From: a virus
Reading direction: 5' to 3' (one strand)
DNA length: 15,856 nucleotides
Virus genome (UHGV): UHGV-0214057
The notes beneath the pieces are model-generated. The model searched no databases, had not been told where the DNA came from, and saw nothing but the letters and a program-made list of their open reading frames with translations. This document shows, in pieces, positions 1-15,856 of this stretch (positions are counted from its first letter, which is position 1; each line of letters starts with the position of its first letter). The position numbers were made by a program, and so were the translations under genes.

Positions 1-139
1 AGTAATACTCCGGGTTGCTGGTGGTGCTGATAACTGCGCCTTCTCCATCCGACGGCTTCACCACCACAGGTGTGGTGACATCACCTTCCGCCGCAATGGC
101 CTGCATCAGGGTATAAGGCCAGATGGTGGAAAGAACCAT
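1..139 (-). CDS. Partial ORF (N-terminus in window, continues past left edge) with a DUF1737-like motif; function unknown
   Basis: Minus-strand ATG at 139..137; my translation reads MVLSTIWPYTLMQAIAAEGDVTTPVVVKPSDGEGAVISTTSNPEYY with no stop to the window edge. The PYTLMQA-A-EGD motif matches the N-domain of the adjacent + strand esterase (PYTLMQAVAIEGD, nt 265-303). Not in the ORF track because it is truncated. Confidence 0.3.
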   Translation of the reverse strand, partial: MVLSTIWPYTLMQAIAAEGDVTTPVVVKPSDGEGAVISTTSNPEYY

Positions 140-1991
140 GGCATTTAAACACTATGATGTTGTCAGGGCGGCGTCGCCGTCAGACCTTGCGGAAAAGCTG
201 ACACACAAACTGAAAGAGGGCTGGCAGCCATATGGCGGACCGGTTGCCATTACGCCGTACACACTGATGCAGGCGGTGGCTATTGAAGGAGATCCACAGG
301 TCGGCCCTTCATCTGAGCCGGACTGGTTCTACGTGGTTGTGCTTGCCGGACAGTCCAACGGCATGGCCTACGGTGAAGGGCTTCCGTTACCGGATTCTTA
401 CGATGCTCCGGATCCGCGCATTAAACAGCTGGCGCGCCGCAGCACGGTAACTCCGGGTGGAGAGAGTTGTACGTATAACGACATCATCCCGGCTGACCAC
501 TGTCTGCATGATGTGCAGGATATGAGTACGCTGAATCATCCGAAGGCAGACCTGAGCAAAGGGCAGTACGGCTGTGTCGGCCAGGGCTTACATATTGCCA
601 AAAAACTGCTCCCGTATATCCCGAATAACGCGGGGATCCTGCTGGTACCATGCTGTCGTGGTGGTTCGGCATTCACCCAGGGCGCGGAGGGGACATTCAG
701 TGCGGACGCGGGGGCCAGCCAGGATTCGGCACGCTGGGGTGTGGGTAAACCGCTATATCAGGACCTGATTGCGCGCACTAAAGCTGCATTACAGAAGAAC
801 CCGAAAAATGTGTTGCTGGCGGTGTGCTGGATGCAGGGCGAATTTGACATGAGCGCTGCCACCTACGCACAGCAACCGGACCTGTTCACGGCCATGCTGA
901 AGCAGTTCCGTACTGACCTTTCCGGATTTAACGCGCAGTGCCATGGCGGCAGTGCTGCAGTTGTACCGTGGATTTGTGGTGACACGACGTATTACTGGAA
1001 AAATACATACGCTACCCAGTACGACACCGTGTACGGAGGGTATAAAAACAGGGAGAGTGAGGGCGTTTATTTTGTGCCCTTCATGACAGACGGTAACGGC
1101 GTCAATACCGCCACTAACGCACCGGCAGAAGATCCGGATATTCCGGCATCAGGATATTACGGTGCGGCATCGAGAACGAATGGAAACCAGGTATCATCAA
1201 ACCGCCCGACACATTTCAGTTCATGGGCGCGCAGGAGCATTATTCCGGATCGTATGGCAACCGCTATTCTGAACGCAGCCGGGCGCACCTCAGCCTTCAT
1301 CAGTGGTAAGGCACCGGAAATCAAACCCTCGCCCGGCGTCGACACGCCATCGGGGCCGTCTGAAGATGCATCCGTACGCACAATCTCCCTGTTGCCGACA
1401 GCCGGAGATGCTGCTGCGCAGGGCTGGAGCATTAAGAATGGCGGAATTCAGTTGTCAGATGGTGTATTTAAGATCACCAAGCAGAGCAATAAAGCCTGGT
1501 CCCTGACGCGCCCGGTGGATGACGCAGTCTCCCTGCTGACACGGGGTGGCAGACTGAGCTGTAAGTTTCGACTGTCAGGCGCACTGACCAACAACCAGTT
1601 CGGTCTGGGAATTTATCTGTATACCGATGTAGCGTTACCTGACGTCGTGGCGATGACCGGGACTGGTAACCCGTTCCTGATGTCGTTCTTCACCCAGACC
1701 ACAGACGGCAAACTGAATCTGATGCATCACAAGAAAGCCGGAAACACAAAGTTGGGCGAGTTCGGGAATTACAGTAACGACTGGCAGACGCTGGAGCTGG
1801 TGTTCACCGCCGGCAGTGCCACGGTTACTCCGAAACTGAATGGAGTGGCTGGCCCGGCATTCCAGGTCATAAAAGACAGTCTGACAGTGGGACTAAATGC
1901 ACTGACGCTGACGGATATTACCAAAAATGCAACGTATGGCGTTGAGATAGAAAGTCTGGTGCTGGAGATAAATGCACCGGTATCATCATAA
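123..1991 (+). CDS. nanS-p: Prophage sialate O-acetylesterase, NanS-p-like (DUF1737-like N-domain, SGNH/SASA esterase domain, C-terminal beta-rich domain)
   Basis: 622-aa ORF. The GQSNG block (VVVLAGQSNGMAYGEG) is typical of the SGNH/SASA esterase family; the N-terminus MAFKHYDVV...PYTLMQA resembles the DUF1737 domain; position immediately upstream of a 933W-type holin matches Stx-phage architecture (established knowledge). Start may be ATG 138 rather than 123. Confidence 0.75.
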   Translation: MVERTMAFKHYDVVRAASPSDLAEKLTHKLKEGWQPYGGPVAITPYTLMQAVAIEGDPQVGPSSEPDWFYVVVLAGQSNGMAYGEGLPLPDSYDAPDPRIKQLARRSTVTPGGESCTYNDIIPADHCLHDVQDMSTLNHPKADLSKGQYGCVGQGLHIAKKLLPYIPNNAGILLVPCCRGGSAFTQGAEGTFSADAGASQDSARWGVGKPLYQDLIARTKAALQKNPKNVLLAVCWMQGEFDMSAATYAQQPDLFTAMLKQFRTDLSGFNAQCHGGSAAVVPWICGDTTYYWKNTYATQYDTVYGGYKNRESEGVYFVPFMTDGNGVNTATNAPAEDPDIPASGYYGAASRTNGNQVSSNRPTHFSSWARRSIIPDRMATAILNAAGRTSAFISGKAPEIKPSPGVDTPSGPSEDASVRTISLLPTAGDAAAQGWSIKNGGIQLSDGVFKITKQSNKAWSLTRPVDDAVSLLTRGGRLSCKFRLSGALTNNQFGLGIYLYTDVALPDVVAMTGTGNPFLMSFFTQTTDGKLNLMHHKKAGNTKLGEFGNYSNDWQTLELVFTAGSATVTPKLNGVAGPAFQVIKDSLTVGLNALTLTDITKNATYGVEIESLVLEINAPVSS

Positions 1992-2075
1992 AAAGTGAGC
2001 CAGTCAAATGGAAGGTATCGTTAAACTCACCGGTAGTGTCAGTGGGTCGTCTGAGATGCCTGCATGAGTTATCAG

Positions 2076-2107
2076 AGCCATCAGTACTTAACTGGTGGCT
2101 TTTTTTA
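2076..2107 (+). terminator. Rho-independent terminator-like hairpin between esterase and holin
   Basis: AGCCATCAG (2076-2084), 7-nt loop, CTGGTGGCT (2092-2100), then TTTTTTT (2101-2107). Confidence 0.45.
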
Positions 2108-2141
2108 TTGTTGTCAGCTTCCGGATAACGGGAGACGGGGT

Positions 2142-2357
2142 ATGTACCAGATGGAAAAAATCACAACAGGTGTGTCATACACCACGTCAGCGGTGGGAAC
2201 GGGCTACTGGTTCCTGCAGTTGCTGGACAGGGTTTCCCCGTCTCAGTGGGCGGCAATAGGCGTGCTGGGGAGTCTGCTGTTTGGGCTGCTGACGTACCTG
2301 ACTAACCTGTATTTCAAAATCAAAGAGGACCGGCGTAAGGCGGCGCGGGGAGAGTAA
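2142..2357 (+). CDS. S: Class II holin (pinholin), 933W/21 S-type, 71 aa
   Basis: [71 protein letters not shown] closely matches the Stx-phage S holin as I recall it. Dual-start motif Met1/Met4, two TM segments, charged C-tail; GGAGACGGGG ribosome-binding site upstream of ATG 2142. The track ORF from 2064 is an in-frame upstream extension. Confidence 0.85.
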
Positions 2358-2358
2358 A

Positions 2359-3252
2359 GTGATGAATAAAAAATATGAACTGGTTGTTAAGGGGATAAAT
2401 AATTACGGGGGTAAGGTTACTGTTACTGTGAAGCCGGAAGGTGACGGGCAAGCGTCGCTGTTGTTGCCAGATGTGGCGATTAGTCTTGACCGTACTGAAG
2501 GTGCCACGCTGGAGTTTTACGAAGCTGAGGCGAAAAAGCAGGCGAAGCAGTTTTTCATGGATGTTGCTGCTGGGTTATGTGAATGGAACGAACCGTTGCC
2601 GGAAAAGCGCCCCGTAATTTTAGAGGCGCAGGATGTGTTGATAACCTACAAAGGAAAGCTACCGGGAAGAATTACTTGTTCTCTGAAGATGCCGCCGTCA
2701 ACACTGCGGTCAGAAAAAGATGATGTTGAATCACGTATTGAAAAACTGGAGAGCTACGTCGTTGAGCTGAATAAGAAATGGTCGATATTGGTGCCTTCTG
2801 GCGATGAAAAGCAGTTTGCTGCGTTTGACGATTATTGTCGGAAAGTGATGAGCAGAAATCTCGCAGAGTGTTTCAGTATTCATAATGATAATTTCAGTGA
2901 GCTGGAATGGGAGTGTAACCGGCCATCCTTTGTTGTATCCGGTGATGCTGGGAAAATAACCATCTCAGAAAATGGGAAAGTAACACCTCCATCGCACCAG
3001 CACAGTGAGGGGCTCATTGAATTTGCCATTGATTACCTGAAGAACAATAAAAAGCAGGGGCTGATGAAGCGCGTTGGCCGTTGCATGGGATATCTTCAGG
3101 TAGCCGCTGAGATTGAAGCGCTGGCCAGTGGTGCTGATAAGGATGCAATTGTGCGGGAGGCTCTTCTTCGTGATTTTAATACTCCACCCTTTAAAAAAGT
3201 GCCGGCTTACTGGCTTCATCCGGGGCTGACTTATCTTAAAGTGCGTATTTAG
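2359..3252 (+). CDS. Hypothetical protein, 297 aa, no recognisable domain; moron between holin and endolysin
   Basis: Uninterrupted ORF beginning GTG 2359 / ATG 2362, 2-5 nt after the holin stop (TAA 2355-2357), with GGAGAG upstream: looks translationally coupled. Visibly more AT-rich than flanking genes. No TM segment or signal peptide evident. Confidence 0.65.
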   Translation: MMNKKYELVVKGINNYGGKVTVTVKPEGDGQASLLLPDVAISLDRTEGATLEFYEAEAKKQAKQFFMDVAAGLCEWNEPLPEKRPVILEAQDVLITYKGKLPGRITCSLKMPPSTLRSEKDDVESRIEKLESYVVELNKKWSILVPSGDEKQFAAFDDYCRKVMSRNLAECFSIHNDNFSELEWECNRPSFVVSGDAGKITISENGKVTPPSHQHSEGLIEFAIDYLKNNKKQGLMKRVGRCMGYLQVAAEIEALASGADKDAIVREALLRDFNTPPFKKVPAYWLHPGLTYLKVRI

Positions 3253-3288
3253 TGGGCCAGGGACAGCGGCTGAATATTTAATATATCC

Positions 3289-3822
3289 ATGAACACCAAA
3301 ATCAAATACGGCCTGTCGGCTGCCGTTCTGGCGCTGATTGCCGCTGGTGCGCCTGCGCCTGACATTCTCGACCAGTTTCTGGATGAAAAGGAAGGCAACC
3401 ACACCACAGCATACCGTGATGGTGCAGGTATCTGGACCATCTGCCGTGGTGCCATCATGGTGGATGGCAAACCTGTCGTTCCGGGCATGAAGTTGTCGAA
3501 GGAAAAATGCGACCAGGTTAACGCCATTGAGCGTGATAAAGCGCTGGCGTGGGTGGAGAAAAACATCAGAGTGCCGCTGACCGAACCCCAGAAAGCGGGG
3601 ATCGCGTCATTCTGTCCGTACAACATTGGTCCCGGTAAGTGTTTCCCGTCGACGTTTTACAGACGAATTAATGCTGGTGATCGAAAAGGTGCCTGCGAAG
3701 CGATTCGCTGGTGGATTAAGGACGGTGGCAGAGACTGCCGTATTCGTTCAAACAACTGTTACGGTCAGGTATCCCGTCGTGACCAGGAGAGCGCGCTGGC
3801 GTGCTGGGGTATCGACAGATAA
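3289..3822 (+). CDS. R: SAR endolysin (T4-lysozyme-like / GH24 family, signal-arrest-release N-terminus)
   Basis: 177 aa; N-terminal weakly hydrophobic Gly/Ala-rich SAR segment (YGLSAAVLALIAAGAPAP) followed by the E-D-T catalytic region (EGNHTTAYRDGAGIWTICRG); near-identical to the Stx-phage R as I recall it. Confidence 0.85.
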   Translation: MNTKIKYGLSAAVLALIAAGAPAPDILDQFLDEKEGNHTTAYRDGAGIWTICRGAIMVDGKPVVPGMKLSKEKCDQVNAIERDKALAWVEKNIRVPLTEPQKAGIASFCPYNIGPGKCFPSTFYRRINAGDRKGACEAIRWWIKDGGRDCRIRSNNCYGQVSRRDQESALACWGIDR

Positions 3823-3911
3823 GCAGAATATTTTGCTGAAAAATGAGGAATGGCCACGCGGGCGGATAACACGAAATCCTGCGAACTGGCGAAACGTAAG
3901 TGAATAAAAGT

Positions 3912-3951
3912 AAAAACCCCGTTTGTTGGCACCAAGCGAGGTTTTGTGTTT
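3912..3951 (+). terminator. Hairpin followed by a U-rich tract after R (possible terminator or RNA structure)
   Basis: AAAAACCCCG ... CGAGGTTTT stem with inner TTGG/CCAA pairing, followed by GTGTTTCT. A-rich on the 5' side, so it could act in both directions. Confidence 0.3.
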
Positions 3952-3979
3952 CTGACCTTGAGTAAGGCAAGGGAGAACA

Positions 3980-4161
3980 TGGCGAAGTGTAAACGAATTC
4001 TGTTGAGGTTGACTATGAAAAATGACCTTGAACTGAAAGCGCCTGTAACTGATGACATCAGCAGAGCACTGGCTTTTGCCATTAAGTGGGTGGCGGTCGG
4101 TGTTGCTGTGTCCCCGATGCTGTATGGGCTGGCAAAACTGGTCATTGCGTTGAAATCGTGA
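3980..4161 (+). CDS. Small protein (about 60 aa) with a C-terminal hydrophobic segment; function unknown
   Basis: Strong ribosome-binding site AAGGGAGAAC 5 nt before ATG 3980. Product [60 protein letters not shown] has a tail-anchor-like TM segment. Alternative start ATG 4014. Confidence 0.45.
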
Positions 4162-4175
4162 AGGGAGGATTAAGC

Positions 4176-4307
4176 ATGTCAGACAAACTCATAACGCTGG
4201 CGAAGATCCTCTGTGTAATTGTCGGCATTTCATTTTCACTAATGCTGGTTGCTCTTTTTCTTTCCATGGCCTGGATGATGTTGTCTTCGTCGGGGTTGCT
4301 GGGGTGA
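4176..4307 (+). CDS. Small single-pass membrane protein (43 aa); function unknown
   Basis: Ribosome-binding site AAGGGAGGA 6 nt before ATG 4176. Product [43 protein letters not shown] has one central TM segment. Stop TGA 4305-4307 overlaps the Rz GTG start (GTGA). Confidence 0.45.
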
Positions 4308-4777
4308 ACATAAACCGAATGCTTTCCGCGTTTATCGTTATTCTGCTGGTGGCCTGTGGTGCGCTGTGGATGGCAACAGACCATTACCGTGATAACGCGA
4401 TTACCTACAAAGCGCAGCGCGATAACAAAGCCAGTGAACTGAAGCTGGCGAACGCAACCATTACTGATATGCAGGTGCGCCAGCGCGATGTTGCTGCGCT
4501 CGATGCAAAATACTCGAGGGAATTAGCCGATGCGAGAGCTGAAAATGAAACTCTTCGCGCTGACGTTGCCGCTGGTCGTAAGCGCCTGCGGATCAACGCC
4601 ACCTGTCCAGGCTCCGTGCGTGAAGCCCCCACCACCTCCGGCGTGGATAATGCAACCGGCCCCCAACTGGCAGACACCGTTACACGGGATTATTTCACCC
4701 TCAGAGAGCGGCTGATGACGATGCAGAAGCAACTGGAAGGGGCACAGGACTATATCCGCACTCAGTGCCTGAAATAA
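4304..4777 (+). CDS. Rz: i-spanin Rz (inner-membrane spanin subunit)
   Basis: N-terminal TM segment, then [15 protein letters not shown]...[11 protein letters not shown]...[19 protein letters not shown], strongly similar to lambda Rz. Start is GTG 4304 or ATG 4319. Confidence 0.8.
4530..4715 (+). CDS. Rz1: o-spanin Rz1 (outer-membrane lipoprotein) embedded in the +1 frame of Rz
   Basis: [17 protein letters not shown] lipobox (cleavage before Cys), followed by the proline-rich [30 protein letters not shown], which matches lambda Rz1. Lies entirely inside Rz, as in lambda. Start is ATG 4530 or 4545. Confidence 0.75.
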
Positions 4778-5127
4778 GTTTTGTTGATGCGCCGTATCGT
4801 CGCTGTATTCCCTCATTAACAGAGACCGCAGCCCGACAGGGAGACTCCTCTGCGCGAGTGTGCGGGGATAATCAAAAACGATACACACCGGGGTTTACCG
4901 CGTTAACGGAGCGCGGCGTTGTCCCCTCATAGTCGCCTGTCCGGTGCGATGGTGGAAGAAGCCGGATGTTTATCACTATTAATTGATGACACAGAAATGG
5001 ATTCATTGAATTTCAGCACGTTTTTGTATTCGTGTTATTGAACATCTGTTTATTTTACTTTTAACATATTGATAATAAAAAGAGCTGTAAATCTTTAGAT
5101 GAGTCGATTTTGTCCGGGGAAGTTCAA

Positions 5128-5268
5128 ATGGATTTTATGCTGACGGTTTCTGGTGTGGTTATCCTGTCCATTGCTTATACTGCAGATAAATATGGCTGCC
5201 ATTTGTTATCACGTATTGGCGCTTATTGTTCGTTGATGCTGATTTTCTCGTCGCTTTTTTTTGAGTAA
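5128..5268 (+). CDS. Possible small hydrophobic peptide (46 aa) in an AT-rich island
   Basis: ATG 5128 preceded by GGGGA (8-nt spacing). Product MDFMLTVSGVVILSIAYTADKYGCHLLSRIGAYCSLMLIFSSLFFE. Below the 60-aa cut-off of the ORF track; coding status uncertain. Confidence 0.2.
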   Translation: MDFMLTVSGVVILSIAYTADKYGCHLLSRIGAYCSLMLIFSSLFFE

Positions 5269-5400
5269 GTTATATTAATTATAACAAATAATTTTCTGTG
5301 TTATTTTTTCAGGCTATCCCGTCAGAGGGGAAGCCTGTACTGCCGGGGAGCGAATGGAAAACTGATGTGTCCGGTAACTGCGTGTTCTGTGAACACCATG

Positions 5401-5586
5401 TTACTTAATTATGTAATTCATACCCGAACTCTCTGTTGACAGCCTTCTTCTGCAGGCTTCAATAACCCACGCTGAAAAGTTTCCTGAACCTTTCAGATCA
5501 AGAGCGATGTTAATTTGTTCAATCATCTGGTTTGGAAATCGGATGTTGCGGGTTGTTGTTCTGCGGGTTCTGTTCTTTGATGACAT
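5401..5586 (-). CDS. Small ribbon-helix-helix-like DNA-binding protein (DUF3950 / YlcI-like), 61 aa
   Basis: MSSKNRTRRTTTRNIRFPNQMIEQINIALDLKGSGNFSAWVIEACRRRL: basic N-tail, a short beta-strand motif (RNIRF) and two helices. Resembles the small ylcI-type genes found just upstream of the terminase small subunit in E. coli lambdoid prophages (from memory). GGGGA ribosome-binding site upstream on the minus strand. Confidence 0.5.
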   Translation of the reverse strand: MSSKNRTRRTTTRNIRFPNQMIEQINIALDLKGSGNFSAWVIEACRRRLSTESSGMNYIIK

Positions 5587-5639
5587 AATGTTTCCCCATA
5601 TTCAGTGTTGCTGATTTGTATTATCTGAAGTTGCTTTTA

Positions 5640-5975
5640 CGTTAATTTGACGCAGATCAATTAATACGATACCTGCGTCATAATTGATTATTTCTCGTGG
5701 TTTGATGGCGTACACACATGTTGTGATAAACCTTATATAGATGATAATCATTATCATTTCGTGGGTCCTTTCCGGCGATCCGACCGGTTACGGGGCGGCG
5801 ACCTCGCGGGTTTTCGCTATTTATGAAAATTTTCCGGGGAAAATCATGTCGGTACTTCTCGAACATAACTATTTGTTTTTTCTAATATCGAATCCGTAAA
5901 AGGTCCGACATGAAAACGCCTAAAAAAGTCATTTTCGGGCACTTTCATGTCGGCCCCTGTATTTATTGTGAGACT
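5640..5975 (+). other. cos: cos site: cosQ-proximal conserved sequence, cosN (12-nt cohesive end GGGCGGCGACCT at 5793-5804) and cosB
   Basis: 5762-5840 (GGGTCCTTTCCGGCGATCCGACCGGTTACGGGGCGGCGACCTCGCGGGTTTTCGCTATTTATGAAAATTTTCCGG) is near-identical to the joined right and left ends of phage lambda as I recall them. Nu1 starts 189 nt after the first cosN base (191 in lambda). Confidence 0.8.
5845..5953 (+). repeat. cosB R-element candidates: three copies of the octamer CATGTCGG (5845-5852 direct, 5905-5912 inverted, 5946-5953 direct)
   Basis: Direct / inverted / direct arrangement with an A/T-rich spacer between the first and second copy mirrors the lambda R3-I1-R2-R1 layout, but the repeat sequence is not lambda's. 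Confidence 0.5.
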
Positions 5976-5980
5976 GTTTC

Positions 5981-6500
5981 ATGAAGGTTAATAAAAAGAA
6001 ACTTGCCGAAATTTTCAACGTGGATCCGCGAACGATTGAACGCTGGCAGTCTCAGGGACTCCCTTGCGTCTCCGGAGGTGGTAAGGGCGTTGAATCTGTA
6101 TTTGATACCGCCATGGCAATTCAGTGGTATGCGCAGAGGGAAGCTGATATCGAAAATGAAAAACTCCGTAAAGAGGTTGAGGATTACAGGGCTGCCAGTG
6201 AGGCAGATCTCCAGCCTGGGACTATTGAGTACGAACGCCATCGACTTACGCGTGCGCAGGCCGACGCACAGGAGCTGAAGAATGCCAGAGACTCCGCAGA
6301 GGTGGTGGAAACCGCATTCTGTACTTTCGTGCTGTCACGGATCGCAGGTGAAATTGCCAGTATTCTTGACGGGATCCCTCTCTCGGTACAGCGGCGTTTT
6401 CCGGAACTGGAAAACCGACATGTTGATTTCCTGAAACGGGATATCATCAAAGCCATGAACAAAGCAGCCGCGCTGGATGAACTGATACCGGGGTTGCTGA

Positions 6501-6526
<26 letters not shown>
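5981..6526 (+). CDS. nu1: Terminase small subunit
   Basis: 181 aa. The C-terminal roughly 110 residues ([58 protein letters not shown]...) are essentially identical to lambda gpNu1 as recalled. The N-terminal DNA-binding domain ([28 protein letters not shown]...) is divergent and, I believe, phage-21-like. Confidence 0.9.
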
Positions 6527-10207
<3,681 letters not shown>

Positions 10208-10227
<20 letters not shown>

Positions 10228-11527
10228 TCTCCCGCATATTGCCAGTATGGCCTTTAATGAGCCGCTGATGCTTGAACCCGCCTATGCGCGGGTTTTCTTT
10301 TGTGCGCTTGCAGGCCAGCTTGGGATCAGCCGCCTGACGGATGCGGTGTCCGGTGACAGCCTGACTGCCCAGGAGGCACCCGCGGCGCTGGCATTATCCG
10401 GTGATGATGACGGACCACGACAGGCCCGCAGTTATCAGGTCATGAACGGCATCGCCGTGCTGCCGGTTTCCGGCACGCTGGTCAGCCGGACGCGGGCGCT
10501 ACAGCCGTATTCGGGGATGACCGGTTACAACGGCATTATCGCCCGTCTGCAACAGGCTGCCAGCGATCCGATGGTGGACGGCATTCTGCTCGATATGGAC
10601 ACGCCAGGCGGAATGGTGGCGGGAGCATTTGACTGTGCTGACATCATCGCCCGTGTGCGAGACATAAAACCGGTATGGGCGCTGGCCAACGACATGAACT
10701 GCAGTGCAGGTCAGCTGCTTGCCAGCGCCGCCTCCCGGCGTCTGGTCACGCAGACCGCCCGGACAGGCTCCATCGGCGTCATGATGGCTCACAGCAATTA
10801 CGGTGCTGCGCTGGAGAAACAGGGCGTGGAAATCACGCTGATTTACAGCGGCAGCCATAAGGTGGATGGCAATCCCTACAGCCATCTTCCGGATGACGTC
10901 CGGGAGACACTGCAGTCCCGGATGGACGCAACCCGCCAGATGTTTGCGCAGAAGGTGTCGGCATATACCGGCCTGTCCGTGCAGGCTGTGCTGGATACCG
11001 AGGCTGCAGTGTACAGCGGTCAGGAGGCCATTGATGCCGGACTGGCTGATGAACTTGTTAACAGTACCGATGCGATCACCGTTATGCGTGATGCACTGGA
11101 TGCACGTAAATCCCGTCTCTCAGGAGGGCGAATGACCAAAGAGACTCAATCAACAACTGTTTCAGCCACTGCTTCGCAGGCTGACGTTACTGACGTGGTG
11201 CCAGCGACGGAGGGCGAGAACGCCAGCGCGGCGCAGCCGGACGTGAACGCGCAGATCACCGCAGCGGTTGCGGCAGAAAACAGCCGCATTATGGGGATCC
11301 TCAACTGTGAGGAGGCTCACGGACGCGAAGAACAGGCACGCGTGCTGGCAGAAACCCCCGGTATGACCGTGGAAACGGCCCGCCGCATTCTGGCAGCTGC
11401 ACCACAGAGTGCACAGGCGCGCAGTGACACTGCGCTGGATCGTCTGATGCAGGGGGCACCGGCACCGCTGGCTGCAGGTAACCCGGCATCTGATGCCGTT
11501 AACGATTTGCTGAACACACCAGTGTAA
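10208..11527 (+). CDS. C: Head maturation protease / scaffold fusion protein C (ClpP/SppA-like)
   Basis: Homology to lambda gpC begins at GTG 10208 (VTAELRNLPHIASMAFNEPLMLEPAYARVFF...); 439 codons as in lambda. The track ORF from 10094 is an in-frame upstream extension that overlaps B. Confidence 0.9.
10922..11527 (+). CDS. nu3: Scaffolding protein Nu3 (in-frame internal start within C)
   Basis: Internal ATG at 10922 in the C frame, 201 codons to the shared stop, matching the lambda C/Nu3 nested arrangement (established knowledge). Not verifiable from sequence alone. Confidence 0.65.
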   Translation: MDATRQMFAQKVSAYTGLSVQAVLDTEAAVYSGQEAIDAGLADELVNSTDAITVMRDALDARKSRLSGGRMTKETQSTTVSATASQADVTDVVPATEGENASAAQPDVNAQITAAVAAENSRIMGILNCEEAHGREEQARVLAETPGMTVETARRILAAAPQSAQARSDTALDRLMQGAPAPLAAGNPASDAVNDLLNTPV

Positions 11528-11536
11528 GGGATGTTT

Positions 11537-11869
11537 ATGACGAGCAAAGAAACCTTTACCCATTACCAGCCGCTGGGCAACAGTGACCCGGCTCATACCG
11601 CAACTGCGCCCGGCGGATTGAGTGCGAAAGCGCCTGCAATGACCCCGCTGATGCTGGACACCTCCACCCGTAAGCTGGTTGCGTGGGATGGCACCACCGA
11701 CGGTGCTGCCGTTGGCATTCTTGCGGTTGCTGCTGACCAGACCAGCACCACGCTGACGTTCTACAAGTCCGGCACGTTCCGTTATGAGGATGTACTCTGG
11801 CCGGAGGCTGCCAGCGACGAGACGAAAAAACGGACCGCGTTTGCCGGAACGGCAATCAGCATCGTTTAA
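11537..11869 (+). CDS. D: Head decoration protein D
   Basis: 110 aa from ATG 11537 ([27 protein letters not shown]...), matching lambda gpD. AAGGG ribosome-binding site at 6-nt spacing; the ATG at 11531 is too close to the site to be the start. Confidence 0.9.
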
Positions 11870-11889
11870 CCTTACCCTTCATCACTAAA

Positions 11890-11912
11890 GGCCGCCTGTG
11901 CGGCTTTTTTTT
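11890..11912 (+). terminator. GC-rich hairpin plus T8 tract between D and E (terminator-like attenuator)
   Basis: GGCCGC-CTGT-GCGGC followed by TTTTTTTT. The same structure is present between D and E in lambda and would be read through by Q-modified polymerase. Confidence 0.4.
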
Positions 11913-11925
11913 ACGGGATTTTTTT

Positions 11926-12951
11926 ATGTCGATGTACACAACCGCCCAGCTGCTGGCGGCAAATGAGCAGAAATTTAAGTTTGATCCGCTGTTTCTGCGT
12001 CTCTTTTTCCGTGAGAGCTATCCCTTCACCACGGAGAAAGTCTATCTCTCACAAATTCCGGGACTGGTAAACATGGCGCTGTACGTTTCGCCGATTGTTT
12101 CCGGTGAGGTTATCCGTTCCCGTGGCGGCTCCACCTCTGAATTTACGCCGGGATATGTCAAGCCGAAGCATGAGGTGAATCCGCAGATGACCCTGCGTCG
12201 CCTGCCGGATGAAGATCCGCAGAATCTGGCGGACCCGGCTTACCGCCGCCGTCGCATCATCATGCAGAACATGCGTGACGAAGAGCTGGCCATTGCCCAG
12301 GTCGAAGAGATGCAGGCAGTTTCTGCCGTGCTTAAGGGCAAATACACCATGACCGGTGAAGCCTTTGATCCGGTTGAGGTGGATATGGGCCGCAGTGCGG
12401 CGAACAACATCACACAGTCCGGCGGCACGGAGTGGAGCAAGCGTGACAAGTCCACGTATGACCCGACCGACGATATCGAAGCCTACGCGCTGAACGCCAG
12501 CGGCGTGGTGAATATCATTGTGTTTGACCCGAAAGGCTGGGCGCTGTTCCGTTCCTTCAAAGCCGTCAGGGAGAAGCTGGATACCCGTCGCGGCTCTCAT
12601 TCCGAACTGGAGACAGCGGTAAAAGACCTGGGCAAAGCGGTGTCTTATAAGGGAATGTATGGCGATGTGGCCATCGTCGTGTATTCCGGACAGTACGTGG
12701 AAAACGGCGTCAAAAAGAACTTCCTGCCGGACAACACGATGGTGCTGGGTAACACTCATGCACGCGGTCTGCGCACCTATGGCTGCATTCAGGATGCGGA
12801 TGCACAGCGCGAAGGCATTAACGCCTCTGCCCGTTACCCGAAAAACTGGGTGACCACCGGCGATCCGGCGCGTGAGTTCACCATGATTCAGTCAGCACCG
12901 CTGATGCTGCTGGCTGACCCTGATGAGTTCGTTTCCGTACAACTGGCGTAA
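11926..12951 (+). CDS. E: Major capsid protein E
   Basis: 341 aa, near-identical to lambda gpE as I recall it (MSMYTTAQLLAANEQKFKFDPLFLRLFFRESYPF...). Confidence 0.95.
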   Translation: MSMYTTAQLLAANEQKFKFDPLFLRLFFRESYPFTTEKVYLSQIPGLVNMALYVSPIVSGEVIRSRGGSTSEFTPGYVKPKHEVNPQMTLRRLPDEDPQNLADPAYRRRRIIMQNMRDEELAIAQVEEMQAVSAVLKGKYTMTGEAFDPVEVDMGRSAANNITQSGGTEWSKRDKSTYDPTDDIEAYALNASGVVNIIVFDPKGWALFRSFKAVREKLDTRRGSHSELETAVKDLGKAVSYKGMYGDVAIVVYSGQYVENGVKKNFLPDNTMVLGNTHARGLRTYGCIQDADAQREGINASARYPKNWVTTGDPAREFTMIQSAPLMLLADPDEFVSVQLA

Positions 12952-12954
12952 TCG

Positions 12955-12977
12955 TGGCCCTTCGGGGCCATTTTCTC
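12955..12977 (+). terminator. Hairpin with UUCG tetraloop followed by a T-rich tract between E and FI
   Basis: TGGCCC-TTCG-GGGCCA followed by TTTTCTCTCT; conserved in lambda; probably an RNA stability or attenuator element. Confidence 0.35.
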
Positions 12978-12992
12978 TCTGTGGAGGAGTTC

Positions 12993-13379
12993 ATGACGAA
13001 AGATGAACTGATTGCCCGTCTTCAGGAGCTGGGTGAGCAACTGAACCGTGATGTCAGCCTGACGGGAACGAAAGAAGAACTGGCGCTCCGTGTGGCAGAG
13101 CTGGAAGAGGAGCTTGATGACACTGCCGATCAGGATACCCCTATCAGCCCGGAAAATGCGCTGACCGGACATGAAAATGAGGTTGTATCAGCGCAGCCGG
13201 ATACCGTGACTGATACGGCTGATCTGGTCACGGTTGTGGCACTGGTGACGCTGCATACTGATGCACTTCACGCCACGCGGGATGACACTGTGGCATTTGT
13301 GCTGCCGGGAACGGCGTTCCGTGTCTCTGCCGGTGTGGCAGCCGAAATGACAGAACGCGGCCTGGCCAGAATGCAATAA
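12993..13379 (+). CDS. FI: DNA-packaging protein FI
   Basis: Homology to lambda gpFI starts at ATG 12993 (MTKDELIARL...), preceded by GGAGGAG. The track start at 12954 is an upstream extension. Confidence 0.85.
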   Translation: MTKDELIARLQELGEQLNRDVSLTGTKEELALRVAELEEELDDTADQDTPISPENALTGHENEVVSAQPDTVTDTADLVTVVALVTLHTDALHATRDDTVAFVLPGTAFRVSAGVAAEMTERGLARMQ

Positions 13380-13390
13380 CGGGAGGCGCT

Positions 13391-13744
13391 GTGGCTGATT
13401 TCGATAACCTGTTCGATGCTGCCATTGCCCGCGCCGATGAAACGATACGCGGGTACATGGGAACGTCAGCCACCATGACATCCGGTGAGCAGTCCGGCGC
13501 AGTAATACGTGGTGTTTTTGATGACCCTGAAAATATCAGCTATGCCGGACAGGGCGTGCGCGTTGAAGGCTCCAGCCCGTCCCTGTTTGTCCGGACTGAT
13601 GATGTGCGGCAACTGCGGCGTGGAGACACGCTGACCATCGGTGAGGAAAACTTCTGGATAGACCGGGTTTCGCCGGATGATGGTGGAAGCTGTCATCTCT
13701 GGCTCAACCGTGGGCAACCACCCGCTGTTAACCGGCGACGATAA
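13391..13744 (+). CDS. FII: Head-tail connector protein FII
   Basis: 117 aa, MADFDNLFDAAIARADETIRGYMGTSAT..., matching lambda gpFII. Confidence 0.9.
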   Translation: MADFDNLFDAAIARADETIRGYMGTSATMTSGEQSGAVIRGVFDDPENISYAGQGVRVEGSSPSLFVRTDDVRQLRRGDTLTIGEENFWIDRVSPDDGGSCHLWLNRGQPPAVNRRR

Positions 13745-13759
13745 ACGCAGGGTGAAATT

Positions 13760-14335
13760 ATGGCGATAAAAGGGCTTGATCAGGCGATTGATAATCTGAG
13801 CCGGGTTCGTAAAAACGCCATTCCGGCGGCTTCAGCAATGACGATTAACCGCGTGGCCACAACGGCGATTAATCAGTCTTCGTCACAGGTTGCCCGGGAA
13901 ACCAGGGTGAGACGGAAACTGGTAAAGGAACGGTCCAGACTGAAACGGGCGACGGTCAGAAATCCGAATGCCAGAATTATCGTTAACCGCGGTGATCTCC
14001 CTGTGATTAAGCTGGGGATCAGAATGCTGGGACGTCGTCCGAACAGCATACTCAAAGCCGGTCAGCATCGTTATCAGCGGGCATTTATCCAGCGATTAAA
14101 TAATGGGCGCTGGCATGTTATGCAACGTCTTCCCCAGGCCAGATATGAGGAGGGCAATGACGACAAGGGAAGGAAAAAGCGTAATCGCCTTCCCATTCAG
14201 GTGGTGAAAATCCCGATGGCGGCCCCACTGAAACAGGCATTTGATGAGAATGTTGACCGTATCCGGCGTGAACGCCTGCCTAAAGAACTGGCATACGCGC
14301 TGAAACAACAACTGAGGATTGCGATAAAACGATGA
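13760..14335 (+). CDS. Z: Tail completion protein Z
   Basis: 191 aa; N- and C-terminal thirds match lambda gpZ (MAIKG...VARETRVRRKLVKER...RRERLPKEL...), central part divergent. Confidence 0.85.
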   Translation: MAIKGLDQAIDNLSRVRKNAIPAASAMTINRVATTAINQSSSQVARETRVRRKLVKERSRLKRATVRNPNARIIVNRGDLPVIKLGIRMLGRRPNSILKAGQHRYQRAFIQRLNNGRWHVMQRLPQARYEEGNDDKGRKKRNRLPIQVVKIPMAAPLKQAFDENVDRIRRERLPKELAYALKQQLRIAIKR

Positions 14336-14727
14336 AACACACTGACATTCGTGCCGCAGTGCTGGATGCACTCGAGCAGCATGAACACGGGGCGACGCTG
14401 TTTGATGGTCGCCCCGTTGTTTTTGACGAAGAGGATTTTCCTGCGATCGCGGTTTATCTGACGGATGCAGAGTATACCGGTGAAGAGCTGGATGCAGATA
14501 CCTGGCGGGCCACGCTGCATATTGAGGTGTTTTTACCGGCACAGGTACCGGATTCAGAGCTTGATCAGTGGATGGAAAGCCGGATTTACCCGGCGATGAC
14601 TGCGATCCCGGCACTGGCAGGACTGATTACCACGATGGTTACGCAGGGCTATGAGTATCGTCGTGATGACGATATGGCGTTATGGAGCTCTGCGGATCTG
14701 ACTTATTCCATTACATACGAGATGTGA
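14332..14727 (+). CDS. U: Tail terminator protein U
   Basis: 131 aa, [44 protein letters not shown]..., matching lambda gpU; ATGA overlap with Z. Confidence 0.9.
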
Positions 14728-14734
14728 GGACGAT

Positions 14735-15481
14735 ATGGCAACACCAAATCCCCTTGAGCCGGTAAAAGGTGCCGGTACCACTCTGTGGGTTTACAACGGC
14801 AAGGGTGATGCTTATGCAAACCCGTTGTCAGACGATGACTGGCAGCGACTGGCTAAGGTGAAGGATCTGACGCCGGGCGAGATGACGGCAGAATCCTACG
14901 ATGATAACTACCTGGATGATGAAGACGCGGACTGGACCGCGACCGGGCAGGGACAGAAATCTGCAGGTGATACCAGTTTTACGCTGGCCTGGAAACCGGG
15001 AGAGGAAGGCCAGAAAGGGCTTATAGGCTGGTTTGAAAGCGGCGATGTCCGGGCCTATAAAATCCGTTTTCCGAATGGCACGGTGGATGTGTTTCGTGGC
15101 TGGGTCAGCAGTATCGGTAAGGCCGTGACGGGGAAAGAAGTGATCACCCGCACGGTGAAAGTCACTAACGTGGGTAAACCTTCTGTAGCGGAAGAACGCA
15201 GCAAAATTACGCCGGTCACTGCGATTAAGGTAACGCCGACAGGTACGGTTGAAAAAGGGAAAACAACCACCCTGACCGTTACTGTGGAACCGGAAAATGC
15301 AACGGATAAGACATTCAGGGCGATTTCCGCCGATCCATCAAAAGCCACCATTAGCGTGAAAGATATGACGATTACTGTGACGGGGGTTAAGGATGGAAAA
15401 GTCAGCATCCCTGTGATTTCCGGTAATGGTCAGTTTGCTGCGGTGGCTGAAATTACCGTTAATAATGTGCCGGGTGGCTAA
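14735..15481 (+). CDS. V: Major tail tube protein V with C-terminal Ig-like domain
   Basis: 248 aa, strong match to lambda gpV ([12 protein letters not shown]...[23 protein letters not shown]...) with the C-terminal Big_2-like region. Confidence 0.9.
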
Positions 15482-15499
15482 AGAGCTGAGAGATAAGCG

Positions 15500-15856
15500 A
15501 TGTTCCTGAAAACAGAACAATTTGAATATAACGGTGTATCCGTCACGCTTTCTGAGCTGTCTGCGCTGCAGCGTATTGAGCATCTTGCCCTCCTGAAACG
15601 GCGGGCAGAAGAGGCTGAAGCCAGCGGCAACCTGCAGGTGAGTGTGGAAGATCTTGTCAGAACCGGCGCGTTTCTGGTGGCGATGTCCCTGTGGCATAAC
15701 CATCCACAGAAAACGCAGTCACCGTCAATGAATGAGGCCGTGATGAAGCGCCGTCGAAGACTTTCCCGCAGAAAAATCATCATCAGTCAGCGTGTTATTT
15801 TTCGCCACTTCAGTAATATCAGTATCCGGACGAACAGCTTCGATCATCCCGGACAG
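15500..15856 (+). CDS. G: Tail assembly chaperone G: the first 81 codons are lambda-G-like; beyond about 15743 the frame stays open but loses homology (gene probably disrupted)
   Basis: My translation from ATG 15500: MFLKTEQFEYNGVSVTLSELSALQRIEHLALLKRRAEEAEASGNLQVSVEDLVRTGAFLVAMSLWHNHPQKTQSPSMNEAV matches lambda gpG residues 1-81; the continuation MKRRRRLSRRKIII... does not. Absent from the ORF track because there is no stop in the window. Confidence 0.55.
   Translation, partial: MFLKTEQFEYNGVSVTLSELSALQRIEHLALLKRRAEEAEASGNLQVSVEDLVRTGAFLVAMSLWHNHPQKTQSPSMNEAVMKRRRRLSRRKIIISQRVIFRHFSNISIRTNSFDHPGQ
15725..15856 (-). CDS. C-terminal fragment of a G-like tail assembly chaperone on the minus strand, including the G-T frameshift slippery heptamer
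   Basis: Reverse-complement translation from the window edge reads LSGMIEAVRPDTDITEVAKNNTLTDDDFSAGKSSTALHHGLIH*. The LSGM and SAGK-ST blocks align with the lambda gpG C-terminus (...RLSGMYEFVVNNAPEQTEDAGPAEPVSAGKCSTVS). Minus-strand GGGAAAG (complement of 15761-15767) is the conserved slippery site. Confidence 0.4.
   Translation of the reverse strand: MSGMIEAVRPDTDITEVAKNNTLTDDDFSAGKSSTALHHGLIH

What the first reader, a model, noticed from the sequence alone, without database searches (positions are those of the whole stretch)
1..303. Left edge: minus-strand ORF with a DUF1737-like motif abuts the esterase start head-to-head
The minus-strand ORF starting at 139 and running off the left edge encodes WPYTLMQAIAAEGD, a diverged copy of the PYTLMQAVAIEGD motif in the N-domain of the + strand esterase (nt 265-303). 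The two start codons overlap in the palindrome CCATGG (136-141). This leaves almost no room for divergent promoters. Together with the right-edge junction in G, it suggests the 15.6-kb block is bounded on both sides by inverted, related sequence, so one rearrangement may explain both.
Basis: partly seen in the sequence, partly recalled or inferred. Interest (0 to 1): 0.5.

Follow-up and report, generated by a model that had tools for sequence, protein, structure and literature searches.

The report
Chimeric antisense ORF at fold-back junction
The "gene" at the left edge is not a gene: it is a 119-base, flipped scrap of a second copy of a common prophage esterase gene, butted against the start of the intact esterase, and the window's right end has a matching flipped scrap, which most likely comes from sequencing or assembly.

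Summary
The minus strand from 139 to the left edge is open and encodes WPYTLMQAIAAEGD. CCATGG sits at 136-141.

The ORF is a junction product, not a gene. Bases 1-119 are 100% identical to the antisense of nt 117-235 (codons 40-78) of a different nanS-p esterase allele, called "B" here, as in E. coli ATCC 25922. At 119|120 this fragment is joined bluntly to position -18 of the intact esterase. The ATG and the codons MVLSTI are the antisense of the esterase leader. In intact prophages with this leader that frame stops after six codons (MVLSTI*).

The right end mirrors this. gpG runs in sense for nt 1-249, then at 15748|15749 continues as antisense gpG nt 426-319.

Both junctions lie inside 100% B-type sequence, while most of the interior matches a different prophage (A type, as in AR_0372). 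Neither junction occurs in 5,426 complete E. coli genomes, or in the phage, plasmid, viral, GTDB or JGI collections.

A single inversion cannot give this topology, because the flanks would be swapped. Two strand switches can. I favour a technical origin (fold-back chimeras at the ends of a short contig built from mixed prophage templates, about 0.55) over an in vivo inverted-triplication-type event (about 0.3). Low interest.

The parts
1..119 (-). Inverted 119-nt fragment of a second nanS-p-type esterase allele ('B'): nt 117-235 of the gene, codons 40-78. This covers the end of the DUF1737 domain and the linker.
   Evidence: Exact reverse-complement identity to ATCC 25922 L001 3001-3119, which lies inside its esterase CDS starting at locus 3235 on the minus strand.
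119..120 (.). Left breakpoint. It is blunt, with no shared bases. Antisense B nt 117 is joined to position -18 of the esterase leader.
   Evidence: Three-way alignment. Allele B would continue GTGATGG; the native upstream is ...TTTTT before CAGATGG. No complete E. coli genome matches across it.
120..137 (+). Native 5' leader and ribosome-binding region of the esterase (-18 to -1), of the B / MINF_9A type.
   Evidence: Identical to ATCC 25922 and MINF_9A leaders. It differs from the leader (..GGGAGGATTC) found in all loci that encode the identical esterase protein.
2..139 (-). Junction-created chimeric ORF of 46 codons, open at the window edge. MVLSTI is the antisense of the leader, W is a junction codon, and the rest is B codons 40-78.
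   Evidence: No Pfam domain. No promoter-like site in 1-600. This exact peptide is absent from a 15-billion-protein collection.
136..141 (.). CCATGG, the natural start context of this esterase leader type. It places an antisense ATG there in every such prophage.
138..1991 (+). Intact nanS-p-type sialate O-acetylesterase gene, 617 aa, with DUF1737, SASA and DUF6645 domains ('A' allele).
   Evidence: Pfam E-values 1.2e-15, 2.4e-12 and 2.2e-19. The exact protein is indexed in 176 blocks of the public contig collection. RefSeq annotates the same start.
137..172 (+). 36-nt stretch identical in the A and B alleles. The switch from B-type leader to A-type esterase lies inside it.
   Evidence: Perfect-match runs: ATCC 25922 (B) up to 172; AR_0372 and L004 (A) from 137.
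80..293 (.). Imperfect inverted repeat (arms 80-126 and 247-293, 47 nt, 70% complementary). It is formed by the homologous PYTLMQA-coding segments of the two alleles.
   Evidence: The DNA fold of 1-380 is not unusual (z = -1.1).
15500..15748 (+). Tail assembly chaperone gene gpG, nt 1-249, in sense. This is the end of the collinear block.
   Evidence: 15253-15748 is 100% identical to the ATCC 25922 prophage.
15748..15749 (.). Right breakpoint. It is blunt, with no shared bases. G nt 249 in sense is joined to G nt 426 in antisense.
   Evidence: No complete E. coli genome matches across it.
15749..15856 (-). Inverted 108-nt fragment of gpG (nt 319-426).
   Evidence: 100% identical over the whole 108 nt, on the opposite strand, in strains such as SK1144; 1,036 records are >=99% identical. 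ATCC 25922 aligns at 100% over 15751-15856.

Best explanation
SHOWN.
- The left-edge minus-strand ORF is a chimeric reading frame created by a breakpoint. It is not a gene.
- Bases 1-119 are a flipped internal piece (nt 117-235, codons 40-78) of a second, B-type nanS-p esterase allele.
- At 119|120 this piece is joined bluntly to position -18 of an intact esterase gene.
- The apparent start codon and first six codons are simply the antisense of that gene's ribosome-binding and start region (aaCCATGGca). In intact prophages with this leader that frame ends at a TGA after MVLSTI.
- The right end carries the same kind of strand-switch junction inside gpG: sense nt 1-249, then antisense nt 426-319.
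- Each junction is embedded in 100% B-type sequence on both sides. Most of the interior of the block is of another prophage type (A).

INFERRED.
- The two junctions are most likely technical. Fold-back ('inverted with intervening deletion') chimeric molecules or reads derived from a B-type prophage were incorporated at the two ends of a short contig.
- That contig is itself a path through sequence shared by more than one lambdoid prophage or strain. The left arm reaches the A-type esterase only through a 36-53-nt stretch that A and B share.

On this reading nothing 'works' here: no divergent promoter problem, no small DUF1737 protein and no invertible block exists in the organism.
For: Structural part:
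- Exact identity of rc(1-119) to nt 117-235 of the ATCC 25922 esterase.
- Native B N-terminus MAFKHYDV...ITPYTLMQAIAAEGDVTT....
- The antisense frame in intact prophages reads MVLSTI then stop.
- No Pfam domain in the 46-aa product and no promoter-like site.
- Breakpoints are pinned to single phosphodiester bonds, with no shared bases.

Uniqueness:
- Neither junction occurs in 5,426 complete E. coli genomes.
- Neither occurs in phages (only the left junction, window 1-700, was queried), plasmids (only the left junction, window 1-400, was queried), IMG/VR, GTDB representatives or JGI metagenomes.
- The junction peptides are absent from 15 billion proteins.

Technical-origin part:
- Both junctions lie only 119 and 108 nt from the two ends of the sequence, about one short-read length. 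The two arms are unequal.
- Both junctions are 'inverted with a 134-177-nt skip', the dominant class of in vitro chimera (over 85% of MDA chimeras, PMC1855051).
- The left arm is not a copy of the block's own esterase (70 of 126 aligned columns), so it needs a second template.
- Both sides of both junctions are 100% ATCC 25922-type, while 137-2293 and 5787-15131 are AR_0372-type.
- The leader + esterase combination at 120-700 is seen in no complete genome.
- The exact tail-tube (V) protein is absent from 15 billion proteins.
- These last points fit a contig threaded through several related templates.
Against: - No reads, coverage or assembly metadata are available, so the technical origin is inferred, not shown.
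- Standard de Bruijn assemblers normally clip low-coverage tips and stop at branches. For the arms to be merged into the contig, the true continuations at -19 and at G nt 250 must have been missing or out-competed at both ends.
- About 70% of MDA chimeras show 2-21 nt of complementarity at the junction (PMC1855051). Both junctions here show none.
- The A/B mosaic could be natural, because lambdoid prophages are notoriously mosaic.
- I do not know that the window is a whole contig.
Confidence: 0.55

Rival explanations
1. A genuine in vivo complex rearrangement. Two inverted template switches (replication or break-induced-replication type) produced an inverted middle copy of the late region. This is an inverted triplication, also called tandem inversion duplication or DUP-TRP/INV-DUP. 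The window would be the middle copy plus about 110 nt of each flanking, oppositely oriented copy. Co-resident A- and B-type prophages would serve as templates, or would later exchange segments by homologous recombination.
For: - The polarity of both junctions is exactly that of an inverted triplication. In ATCC 25922 coordinates the window reads L011[22931-23049](+), then rc(~6404-23183), then L011[6229-6334](+).
- The block size (15.6 kb) falls within the 5.2-42.6 kb range of inverted segments with two novel junctions described in E. coli Lac amplification (PMC3161906).
- The 134- and 177-nt offsets would act as spacers that stabilise the resulting inverted repeats.
- A real junction followed by repeated sequence would also make a short-read contig stop soon after it.
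- Many strains carry both alleles, for example O104:H4 2009EL-2071 and strain 266917_2.
Against: - The flanking copy must equal the middle copy. The left arm (B) matches the block's own nt 117-235 (A) at only 70 of 126 aligned columns, so extra events are needed: a switch between different prophages, or later gene conversions.
- Reported E. coli junctions have 3-30 bp of microhomology (PMC3161906). Here there is none.
- With a de Bruijn assembler, real junctions entering repeats should give two arms of equal length (about k). The arms are 119 and 108 nt.
- It has never been seen in any other genome.
Confidence: 0.3
2. Two independent in vivo events. Three prophage remnants lie side by side in alternating orientation (B reversed, A forward, a third reversed). 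Two separate deletions (or inversions) fused esterase to esterase on the left and G to G on the right.
For: - A deletion between divergently oriented neighbouring prophages would give an antisense-esterase | sense-esterase junction. A deletion between convergent ones would give sense-G | antisense-G (inference).
- Blunt junctions fit illegitimate recombination.
Against: - It requires three adjacent prophages in alternating orientation.
- It requires two random deletions, each ending in the same gene on both sides within about 135-177 nt of mirror positions. That is a very unlikely coincidence without a palindrome-centred mechanism.
- No such arrangement appears among 5,426 complete genomes.
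Confidence: 0.07
3. One reading: one simple inversion of the 15.6-kb block within a prophage explains both edges.
For: Both edges do carry inverted, related sequence.
Against: A simple inversion swaps the flanks. The left flank would then be antisense distal G/T sequence and the right flank antisense esterase-upstream sequence. The window has esterase-derived sequence on the left and G-derived sequence on the right, each next to its own gene. Homologous recombination between inverted prophages would preserve gene collinearity and could not give head-to-head fusions.
Confidence: 0.03
4. The minus-strand ORF is a real, divergently transcribed gene for a small DUF1737-like protein whose start overlaps the esterase start.
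For: The frame is open for 46 codons to the window edge, with an ATG in CCATGG.
Against: - It begins at codon 40 of a homologue whose DUF1737 domain spans residues 3-49, so the domain is missing.
- Its first seven codons are antisense leader plus a junction codon.
- There is no promoter-like site.
- The same antisense ATG gives a 6-codon ORF in intact prophages.
- The peptide is absent from 15 billion proteins.
Confidence: 0.01

Closest known systems
NanS-p prophage sialate O-acetylesterases (933W / phi24B gp84 type; DUF1737 + SASA + C-terminal lectin-like DUF6645)
   Same: - The plus-strand gene 138-1991 has all three Pfam domains.
- It sits in the usual place upstream of the holin and lysis genes.
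- The left arm is a piece of another allele of the same family. Allelic diversity of the N-terminal domain and linker is documented (PMC10462455).
A 2026 preprint assigns that domain as the capsid-binding decoration domain of phi24B gp84, with a Tyr 'tooth' in this loop (bioRxiv 10.64898/2026.04.10.717836).
   Different: - The left-edge copy is only 39 codons (40-78), inverted and promoterless, and is fused to antisense leader. It is a fragment, not a family member that could fold or function.
- No stx genes are in the window.
Inverted triplication / tandem inversion duplication (two inverted template switches) in E. coli and Salmonella Lac amplification; DUP-TRP/INV-DUP in humans
   Same: Two novel junctions in cis with opposite strand switches bound an inverted segment of 5-43 kb (PMC3161906; PMC11293582). 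The polarity and size here match.
   Different: - Those junctions have 3-30 bp of microhomology, and all copies are identical.
- Here both junctions are blunt, and the left flank is a different allele from the block.
- Copy number cannot be assessed.
In vitro fold-back / inverted chimeras (phi29 MDA, end-repair hairpin artefacts) carried into assemblies
   Same: The signature is 'inverted sequence with an intervening deletion' between nearby sites on the same template, which makes up over 85% of MDA chimeras (PMC1855051). Here the skips are 134 nt (left) and 177 nt (right), each within 100% B-type sequence. Both sit about one read length from the sequence ends.
   Different: About 70% of such chimeras show 2-21 nt of priming complementarity; none is present here. 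The library method of the source is unknown.
Hairpin telomeres of linear plasmid-prophages (N15 / PY54 type)
   Same: Reading around a hairpin end also produces sequence followed by its reverse complement at a contig end.
   Different: A hairpin telomere gives a perfect palindrome with no skip at a telRL site. Here the arms are offset by 134-177 nt, lie inside coding genes, and on the left differ from the adjacent sequence. The block is an ordinary lambda-type late region.

Membership tests
NanS-p / DUF1737-SASA esterase (plus-strand gene 138-1991) | N-terminal DUF1737, central SASA (SGNH-type) esterase domain and C-terminal DUF6645 domain | tested here: met
   Pfam hits above the curated cut-offs: DUF1737 residues 3-49 (57.6 bits), SASA 66-262 (47.4 bits), DUF6645 467-577 (70.1 bits).
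NanS-p / DUF1737-SASA esterase (plus-strand gene 138-1991) | Location in the late operon of a lambdoid prophage, upstream of the holin and endolysin genes | tested here: met
   A holin (PF04971) ORF at 2064-2357 and a lysozyme gene at 3289-3822 follow it. The order is the same in MINF_9A and AR_0372.
DUF1737-domain protein (minus-strand ORF 139-2) | A recognisable DUF1737 domain (about 50 residues) | tested here: not met
   hmmscan finds no family at E<=1. By alignment to allele B, only residues 40-49 of the domain are present.
DUF1737-domain protein (minus-strand ORF 139-2) | Own translational start and promoter | tested here: not met
   The ATG and MVLSTI are the antisense of the esterase leader, and this frame is closed by TGA in intact prophages. 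There are 0 promoter-like sites in 1-600.
Simple inversion of a chromosomal segment | Each flank is the sequence that originally adjoined the other end of the segment | tested here: not met
   The left flank is esterase-derived and the right flank is gpG-derived, so each flank is next to its own gene.
Inverted triplication / tandem inversion duplication | Two strand-switch junctions in cis with the polarity +copy | -copy | +copy | tested here: met
   Window = L011[22931-23049](+) | rc(~L011 6404-23183) | L011[6229-6334](+).
Inverted triplication / tandem inversion duplication | Flanking copies identical to the inverted middle copy | tested here: not met
   rc(1-119) matches the block's own nt 117-235 (254-372) at 70 of 126 aligned columns. 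The right side cannot be tested, because the block lacks G nt 319-426.
Inverted triplication / tandem inversion duplication | Microhomology at the junctions (3-30 bp in E. coli, PMC3161906) | tested here: not met
   Both junctions are blunt.
Inverted triplication / tandem inversion duplication | About three-fold copy number of the segment | not testable with these tools
   No reads or depth information are available.
Fold-back chimeric read / contig-end artefact | Inverted join between nearby sites of one template, with an intervening deletion | tested here: met
   Left: B nt 117 joined to B nt -18 (134-nt skip). Right: G nt 249 joined to G nt 426 (177-nt skip). Both sides are 100% ATCC 25922-type.
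Fold-back chimeric read / contig-end artefact | Junction supported by few reads, with the normal continuation present in the read set | not testable with these tools
   The source sample was not found in any searchable collection.
Hairpin telomere (N15-type) | Perfect terminal palindrome at a tel site | tested here: not met
   The arms are offset by 134-177 nt. The best inverted repeat at the left edge is 47 nt at 70%.

The most novel reading that the evidence does not exclude
The two junctions are real. In that case a natural E. coli isolate carries a 15.6-kb inverted middle copy of a lambdoid late region. It would have been made by two blunt, homology-free strand switches that used two co-resident prophages (A- and B-type) as templates. 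That would be a wild-type example of the inverted-triplication (TID, MMBIR-like) rearrangements so far described mainly under laboratory selection, and it would show prophage paralogues serving as switch templates.
Probability: 0.3. Interest if true: 0.4.

Novelty: not a real feature. Interest (0 to 1): 0.13.

Why it matters
Mostly as a caution. An open antisense frame carrying a conserved motif and an overlapping start looks like a divergent gene pair, but it is a breakpoint product.

If the sequence is a contig, about 110 nt at each end should be trimmed before annotation, prophage typing or counting of nanS-p copies. The A/B mosaic interior should not be taken as a natural recombinant without read support.

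If the junctions were verified in reads, the locus would be a modestly interesting natural example of double template switching between paralogous prophages. It would also mark the block as a transcriptionally orphaned, defective late region, cut off from its Q-dependent late promoter.

Tried and rejected
1. Finding the source. Exact junction 39-41-mers were scanned in IMG/VR, the GTDB representative genomes and the JGI metagenomes, all with zero hits. The junction-spanning peptides, and the esterase read from the upstream ATG at 123, are absent from the 15-billion-protein collection. The exact esterase is too common to lead to the source. The exact V protein is not on record either. The origin, reads and assembler therefore remain unknown.

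2. Natural occurrence of the junction k-mers elsewhere in E. coli, which could let a small-k graph join the pieces without chimeric reads. 41-nt junction-centred blastn searches found no place covering 80% or more.

3. Microhomology. I looked for priming complementarity at both junctions. There is only an offset 5-nt GATGG on the left (with a 2-nt terminal mismatch) and an offset GAAG on the right. Neither lies at the join. Rejected as mechanistic evidence.

4. Cruciform or structured element at the left edge. The DNA fold of 1-380 gives z = -1.1, which is unremarkable.

5. Divergent promoters. None was found.

6. Hairpin-telomere and invertase-type explanations. Rejected on anatomy.

7. A 15,643-bp E. 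coli 'plasmid' (NZ_CP148543.1), similar in size to the block. It turned out to be an unrelated early-region prophage fragment.

8. The 297-aa ORF after the holin looked like a fusion. It is a full-length member of phrog_1085.
Full report
**What the window is.** The window is the late region of a lambda-type E. coli prophage.
- It starts with a nanS-p-type esterase gene (138-1991; DUF1737 + SASA + DUF6645).
- A P21-type holin ORF, a phrog_1085 protein and a lysozyme gene follow.
- By ORF position and collinearity with the annotated MINF_9A and AR_0372 prophages, the rest is Rz, terminase small and large subunits, portal, S49 protease, decoration protein, major capsid protein, head-tail and tail proteins, and the first 249 nt of the tail chaperone gene gpG.
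- Positions 120/137-15748 are collinear with prophages in hundreds of complete E. coli genomes. AR_0372 matches at 98.2% from 137, and MINF_9A matches from 120 to 15748.

**Checking the observation.**
- The minus-strand frame from 139 to the left edge is open and reads MVLSTIWPYTLMQAIAAEGDVTTPVVVKPSDGEGAVISTTSNPEYY.
- The esterase has PYTLMQAVAIEGD at 265-303.
- CCATGG is at 136-141.
- The two motif-coding segments form a 47-nt, 70%-complementary inverted repeat.

**What the left arm is.** Bases 1-126 hit 802 of 5,426 complete E. coli genomes, always inside an esterase gene and on its antisense strand.
- In ATCC 25922 the match lies 117-235 nt into the gene.
- rc(1-119) is exactly nt 117-235 of that allele, which I call B.
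- The native B protein begins MAFKHYDVVRAASPSDLAKRLTQKLKEGWQPFGSPVAITPYTLMQAIAAEGDVTTPVVVKPSDGEGAVISTTSNPEYYFVVALAGQSNG....
- B is 72% identical to the window's own esterase over the N-terminus and has a 14-residue longer linker.
- The arm therefore encodes B residues 40-78, which are the last ten residues of the DUF1737 domain plus the linker.
- Pfam sees no domain in the 46-aa product.
- The motif is conserved because it ends the DUF1737 domain. A 2026 preprint identifies that domain as the capsid-binding decoration domain of phi24B gp84 (bioRxiv 10.64898/2026.04.10.717836). Allelic diversity of this region is documented in PMC10462455.

**The left junction.** A three-way alignment pins the breakpoint to 119|120.
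- To the left the window follows antisense B. B would continue GTGATGGCC.
- To the right the window follows the native esterase leader from -18 (CAGATGGTGGAAAGAACC-ATG). In intact prophages this leader is preceded by an AT-rich spacer ending ...CATTTTT (29% GC).
- No base is shared at the join.
- In intact prophages with this leader, the antisense ATG inside CCATGG opens ATG GTT CTT TCC ACC ATC TGA, which reads MVLSTI-stop.
- In the window the TGA is replaced by TGG and the frame happens to continue in B's reading frame.
- The 'overlapping start codons' are thus a property of the esterase's own start context. The long antisense ORF is an accident of the breakpoint.
- There is no promoter-like site in 1-600 and nothing unusual in the DNA fold.

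**The right junction.** gpG runs in sense from 15500 to 15748 (nt 1-249).
- From 15749 to the end, the window is the reverse complement of gpG nt 426-319. This piece is 100% identical, on the opposite strand, in strains such as SK1144, and 1,036 records are 99% or more identical.
- This junction is also blunt.

**Topology.** A simple inversion would exchange the flanks. Here each flank derives from the gene it abuts, so a single inversion is excluded.
- In the coordinates of the ATCC 25922 prophage, the window reads [22931-23049](+) | rc[~6404-23183] | [6229-6334](+).
- This is the polarity expected for the inverted middle copy of an inverted triplication made by two strand switches.
- That class is known in E. 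coli: 5.2-42.6 kb segments, two novel junctions, microhomology of 3-30 bp (PMC3161906; human counterpart in PMC11293582).
- Two defining expectations fail. The junctions have no microhomology. The left flank is not a copy of the block: rc(1-119) matches the block's own nt 117-235 at only 70 of 126 aligned columns.

**A further mosaic clue.** All loci that encode the identical 617-aa esterase carry a different leader (..GGGAGGATTC-ATG). This is why 100%-identical genomes match only from 137.
- The window's leader 120-136 is the B type.
- Perfect-match runs against ATCC 25922 (B type): 1-172, most of 2116-4656, 15253-15748, and 15751-15856 of the right arm.
- Perfect-match runs against AR_0372 (A type): 137-1886, 1982-2285, and almost all of 5787-15131.
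- Both junctions therefore lie in sequence that is 100% B-type on both sides. Each is a local fold-back on a B-type template, with skips of 134 and 177 nt.
- The switch to the A-type esterase occurs inside a 36-nt stretch (137-172) that A and B share.
- No complete genome has the 120-700 combination at 100%.
- The exact tail-tube protein is absent from a 15-billion-protein collection, although its DNA is 99.6% identical to known alleles.

**Uniqueness.** Neither junction is found in any of the following.
- 5,426 complete E. coli genomes.
- INPHARED phages and PLSDB plasmids; only the left junction was queried in these two collections.
- IMG/VR, GTDB representative genomes, or JGI metagenomes.
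- The junction peptides are not on record.
- The source could not be identified.

**Interpretation.** The structural conclusion is firm. The ORF is a breakpoint chimera of antisense leader plus codons 40-78 of a second esterase allele. It is not a gene, and the two window ends carry matching strand-switch junctions. The origin of the junctions is inferred.

I favour a technical origin (about 0.55), for these reasons:
- Both junctions sit 119 and 108 nt from the two ends of the sequence, about one short-read length. The arms are unequal, whereas real junctions entering repeats would give de Bruijn contigs two arms of length about k.
- 'Inverted with a short intervening deletion on one template' is the signature class of in vitro chimeras (PMC1855051).
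- The left arm needs a second template and connects to the A esterase only through a short shared stretch.
- The interior alternates between two prophage types in combinations not seen elsewhere, as expected for a contig threaded through mixed prophage or strain templates.

Against the technical origin:
- Assemblers usually clip such tips and stop at branches.
- Most MDA chimeras show some priming complementarity.
- Natural lambdoid mosaicism could explain the A/B pattern.
- I cannot show that the window is a whole contig.

The main rival (about 0.3) is a genuine double template switch involving co-resident A- and B-type prophages. Many strains carry both alleles. Two independent deletions between alternately oriented prophage remnants (about 0.07), a simple inversion (about 0.03) and a real divergent gene (about 0.01) are unlikely or refuted.

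**Verdict.** The block is indeed flanked by inverted related sequence, but there is no divergent gene pair and no single inversion. Interest is low unless reads prove that the junctions exist in the organism.

Noticed in passing
window 120-172 versus 137 onward: The esterase gene is itself a novel combination. It has a B / MINF_9A-type leader (CAGATGGTGGAAAGAAC) on an esterase that is otherwise 100% identical to alleles which always carry a different leader (..GGGAGGATTC). The switch lies in a 36-nt stretch shared by both alleles, and no complete E. coli genome has 120-700 at 100%.
   Followed up: partly
window 1-15856 (segments 137-2293, 2116-4656, 5787-15131, 15253-15748): The block alternates between near-perfect identity to the AR_0372 prophage and near-perfect identity to the ATCC 25922 prophage (pattern B|A|B|..|A|B). 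This is either natural lambdoid mosaicism or a contig threaded through two co-resident or co-sampled prophages.
   Followed up: partly
window 14735-15481: The exact 248-aa major tail (V-type) protein is absent from a 15-billion-protein collection, although the gene is 99.6% identical in DNA to alleles in complete genomes. The neighbouring proteins (portal, capsid, U, Z) are all on record.
   Followed up: partly
window 2359-3252: A 297-aa ORF after the holin has a DUF1327 (YdfR-like) N-terminus and about 196 extra residues. It looked like a fusion but is a full-length match to phrog_1085 (296/296). In ATCC 25922 the same region is annotated as a truncated YdfR pseudogene plus about 590 unannotated bases, so that RefSeq annotation may be missing a real long variant.
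   Followed up: partly
window 15500-15856 (+) and 15728-15856 (-): The right junction also creates chimeric frames. gpG reads through the join without a stop to the window end (...NEAVMK|RRRRLSRRKIII...). On the minus strand, the C-terminal G fragment (LSGMIEAV...GKSSTA) is fused to LHHGLIH-stop. The antisense arm contains the G-T frameshift slippery site GGGAAAG.
   Followed up: no
window 123-140: An in-frame ATG at 123 (MVERT-MAFK...) lies 15 nt upstream of the annotated esterase start at 138. The 622-aa version is not in the protein collection, and RefSeq uses the start equivalent to 138.
   Followed up: partly
window 5897-5961: A 30-nt, 77%-complementary inverted repeat with a 5-nt spacer lies just upstream of the small terminase gene (5981). 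This is presumably part of the cos / terminase-binding region. One arm recurs at 7196-7213 at 94% complementarity.
   Followed up: no
L012 (NZ_CP148543.1, 15,643 bp): A deposited 'complete circular plasmid' of E. coli Z1322PEC0161 is just a lambdoid prophage early / Q-region fragment (P, paa, hokD, rusA, methyltransferase, holin) with no plasmid functions annotated. It is probably an assembly by-product.
   Followed up: no
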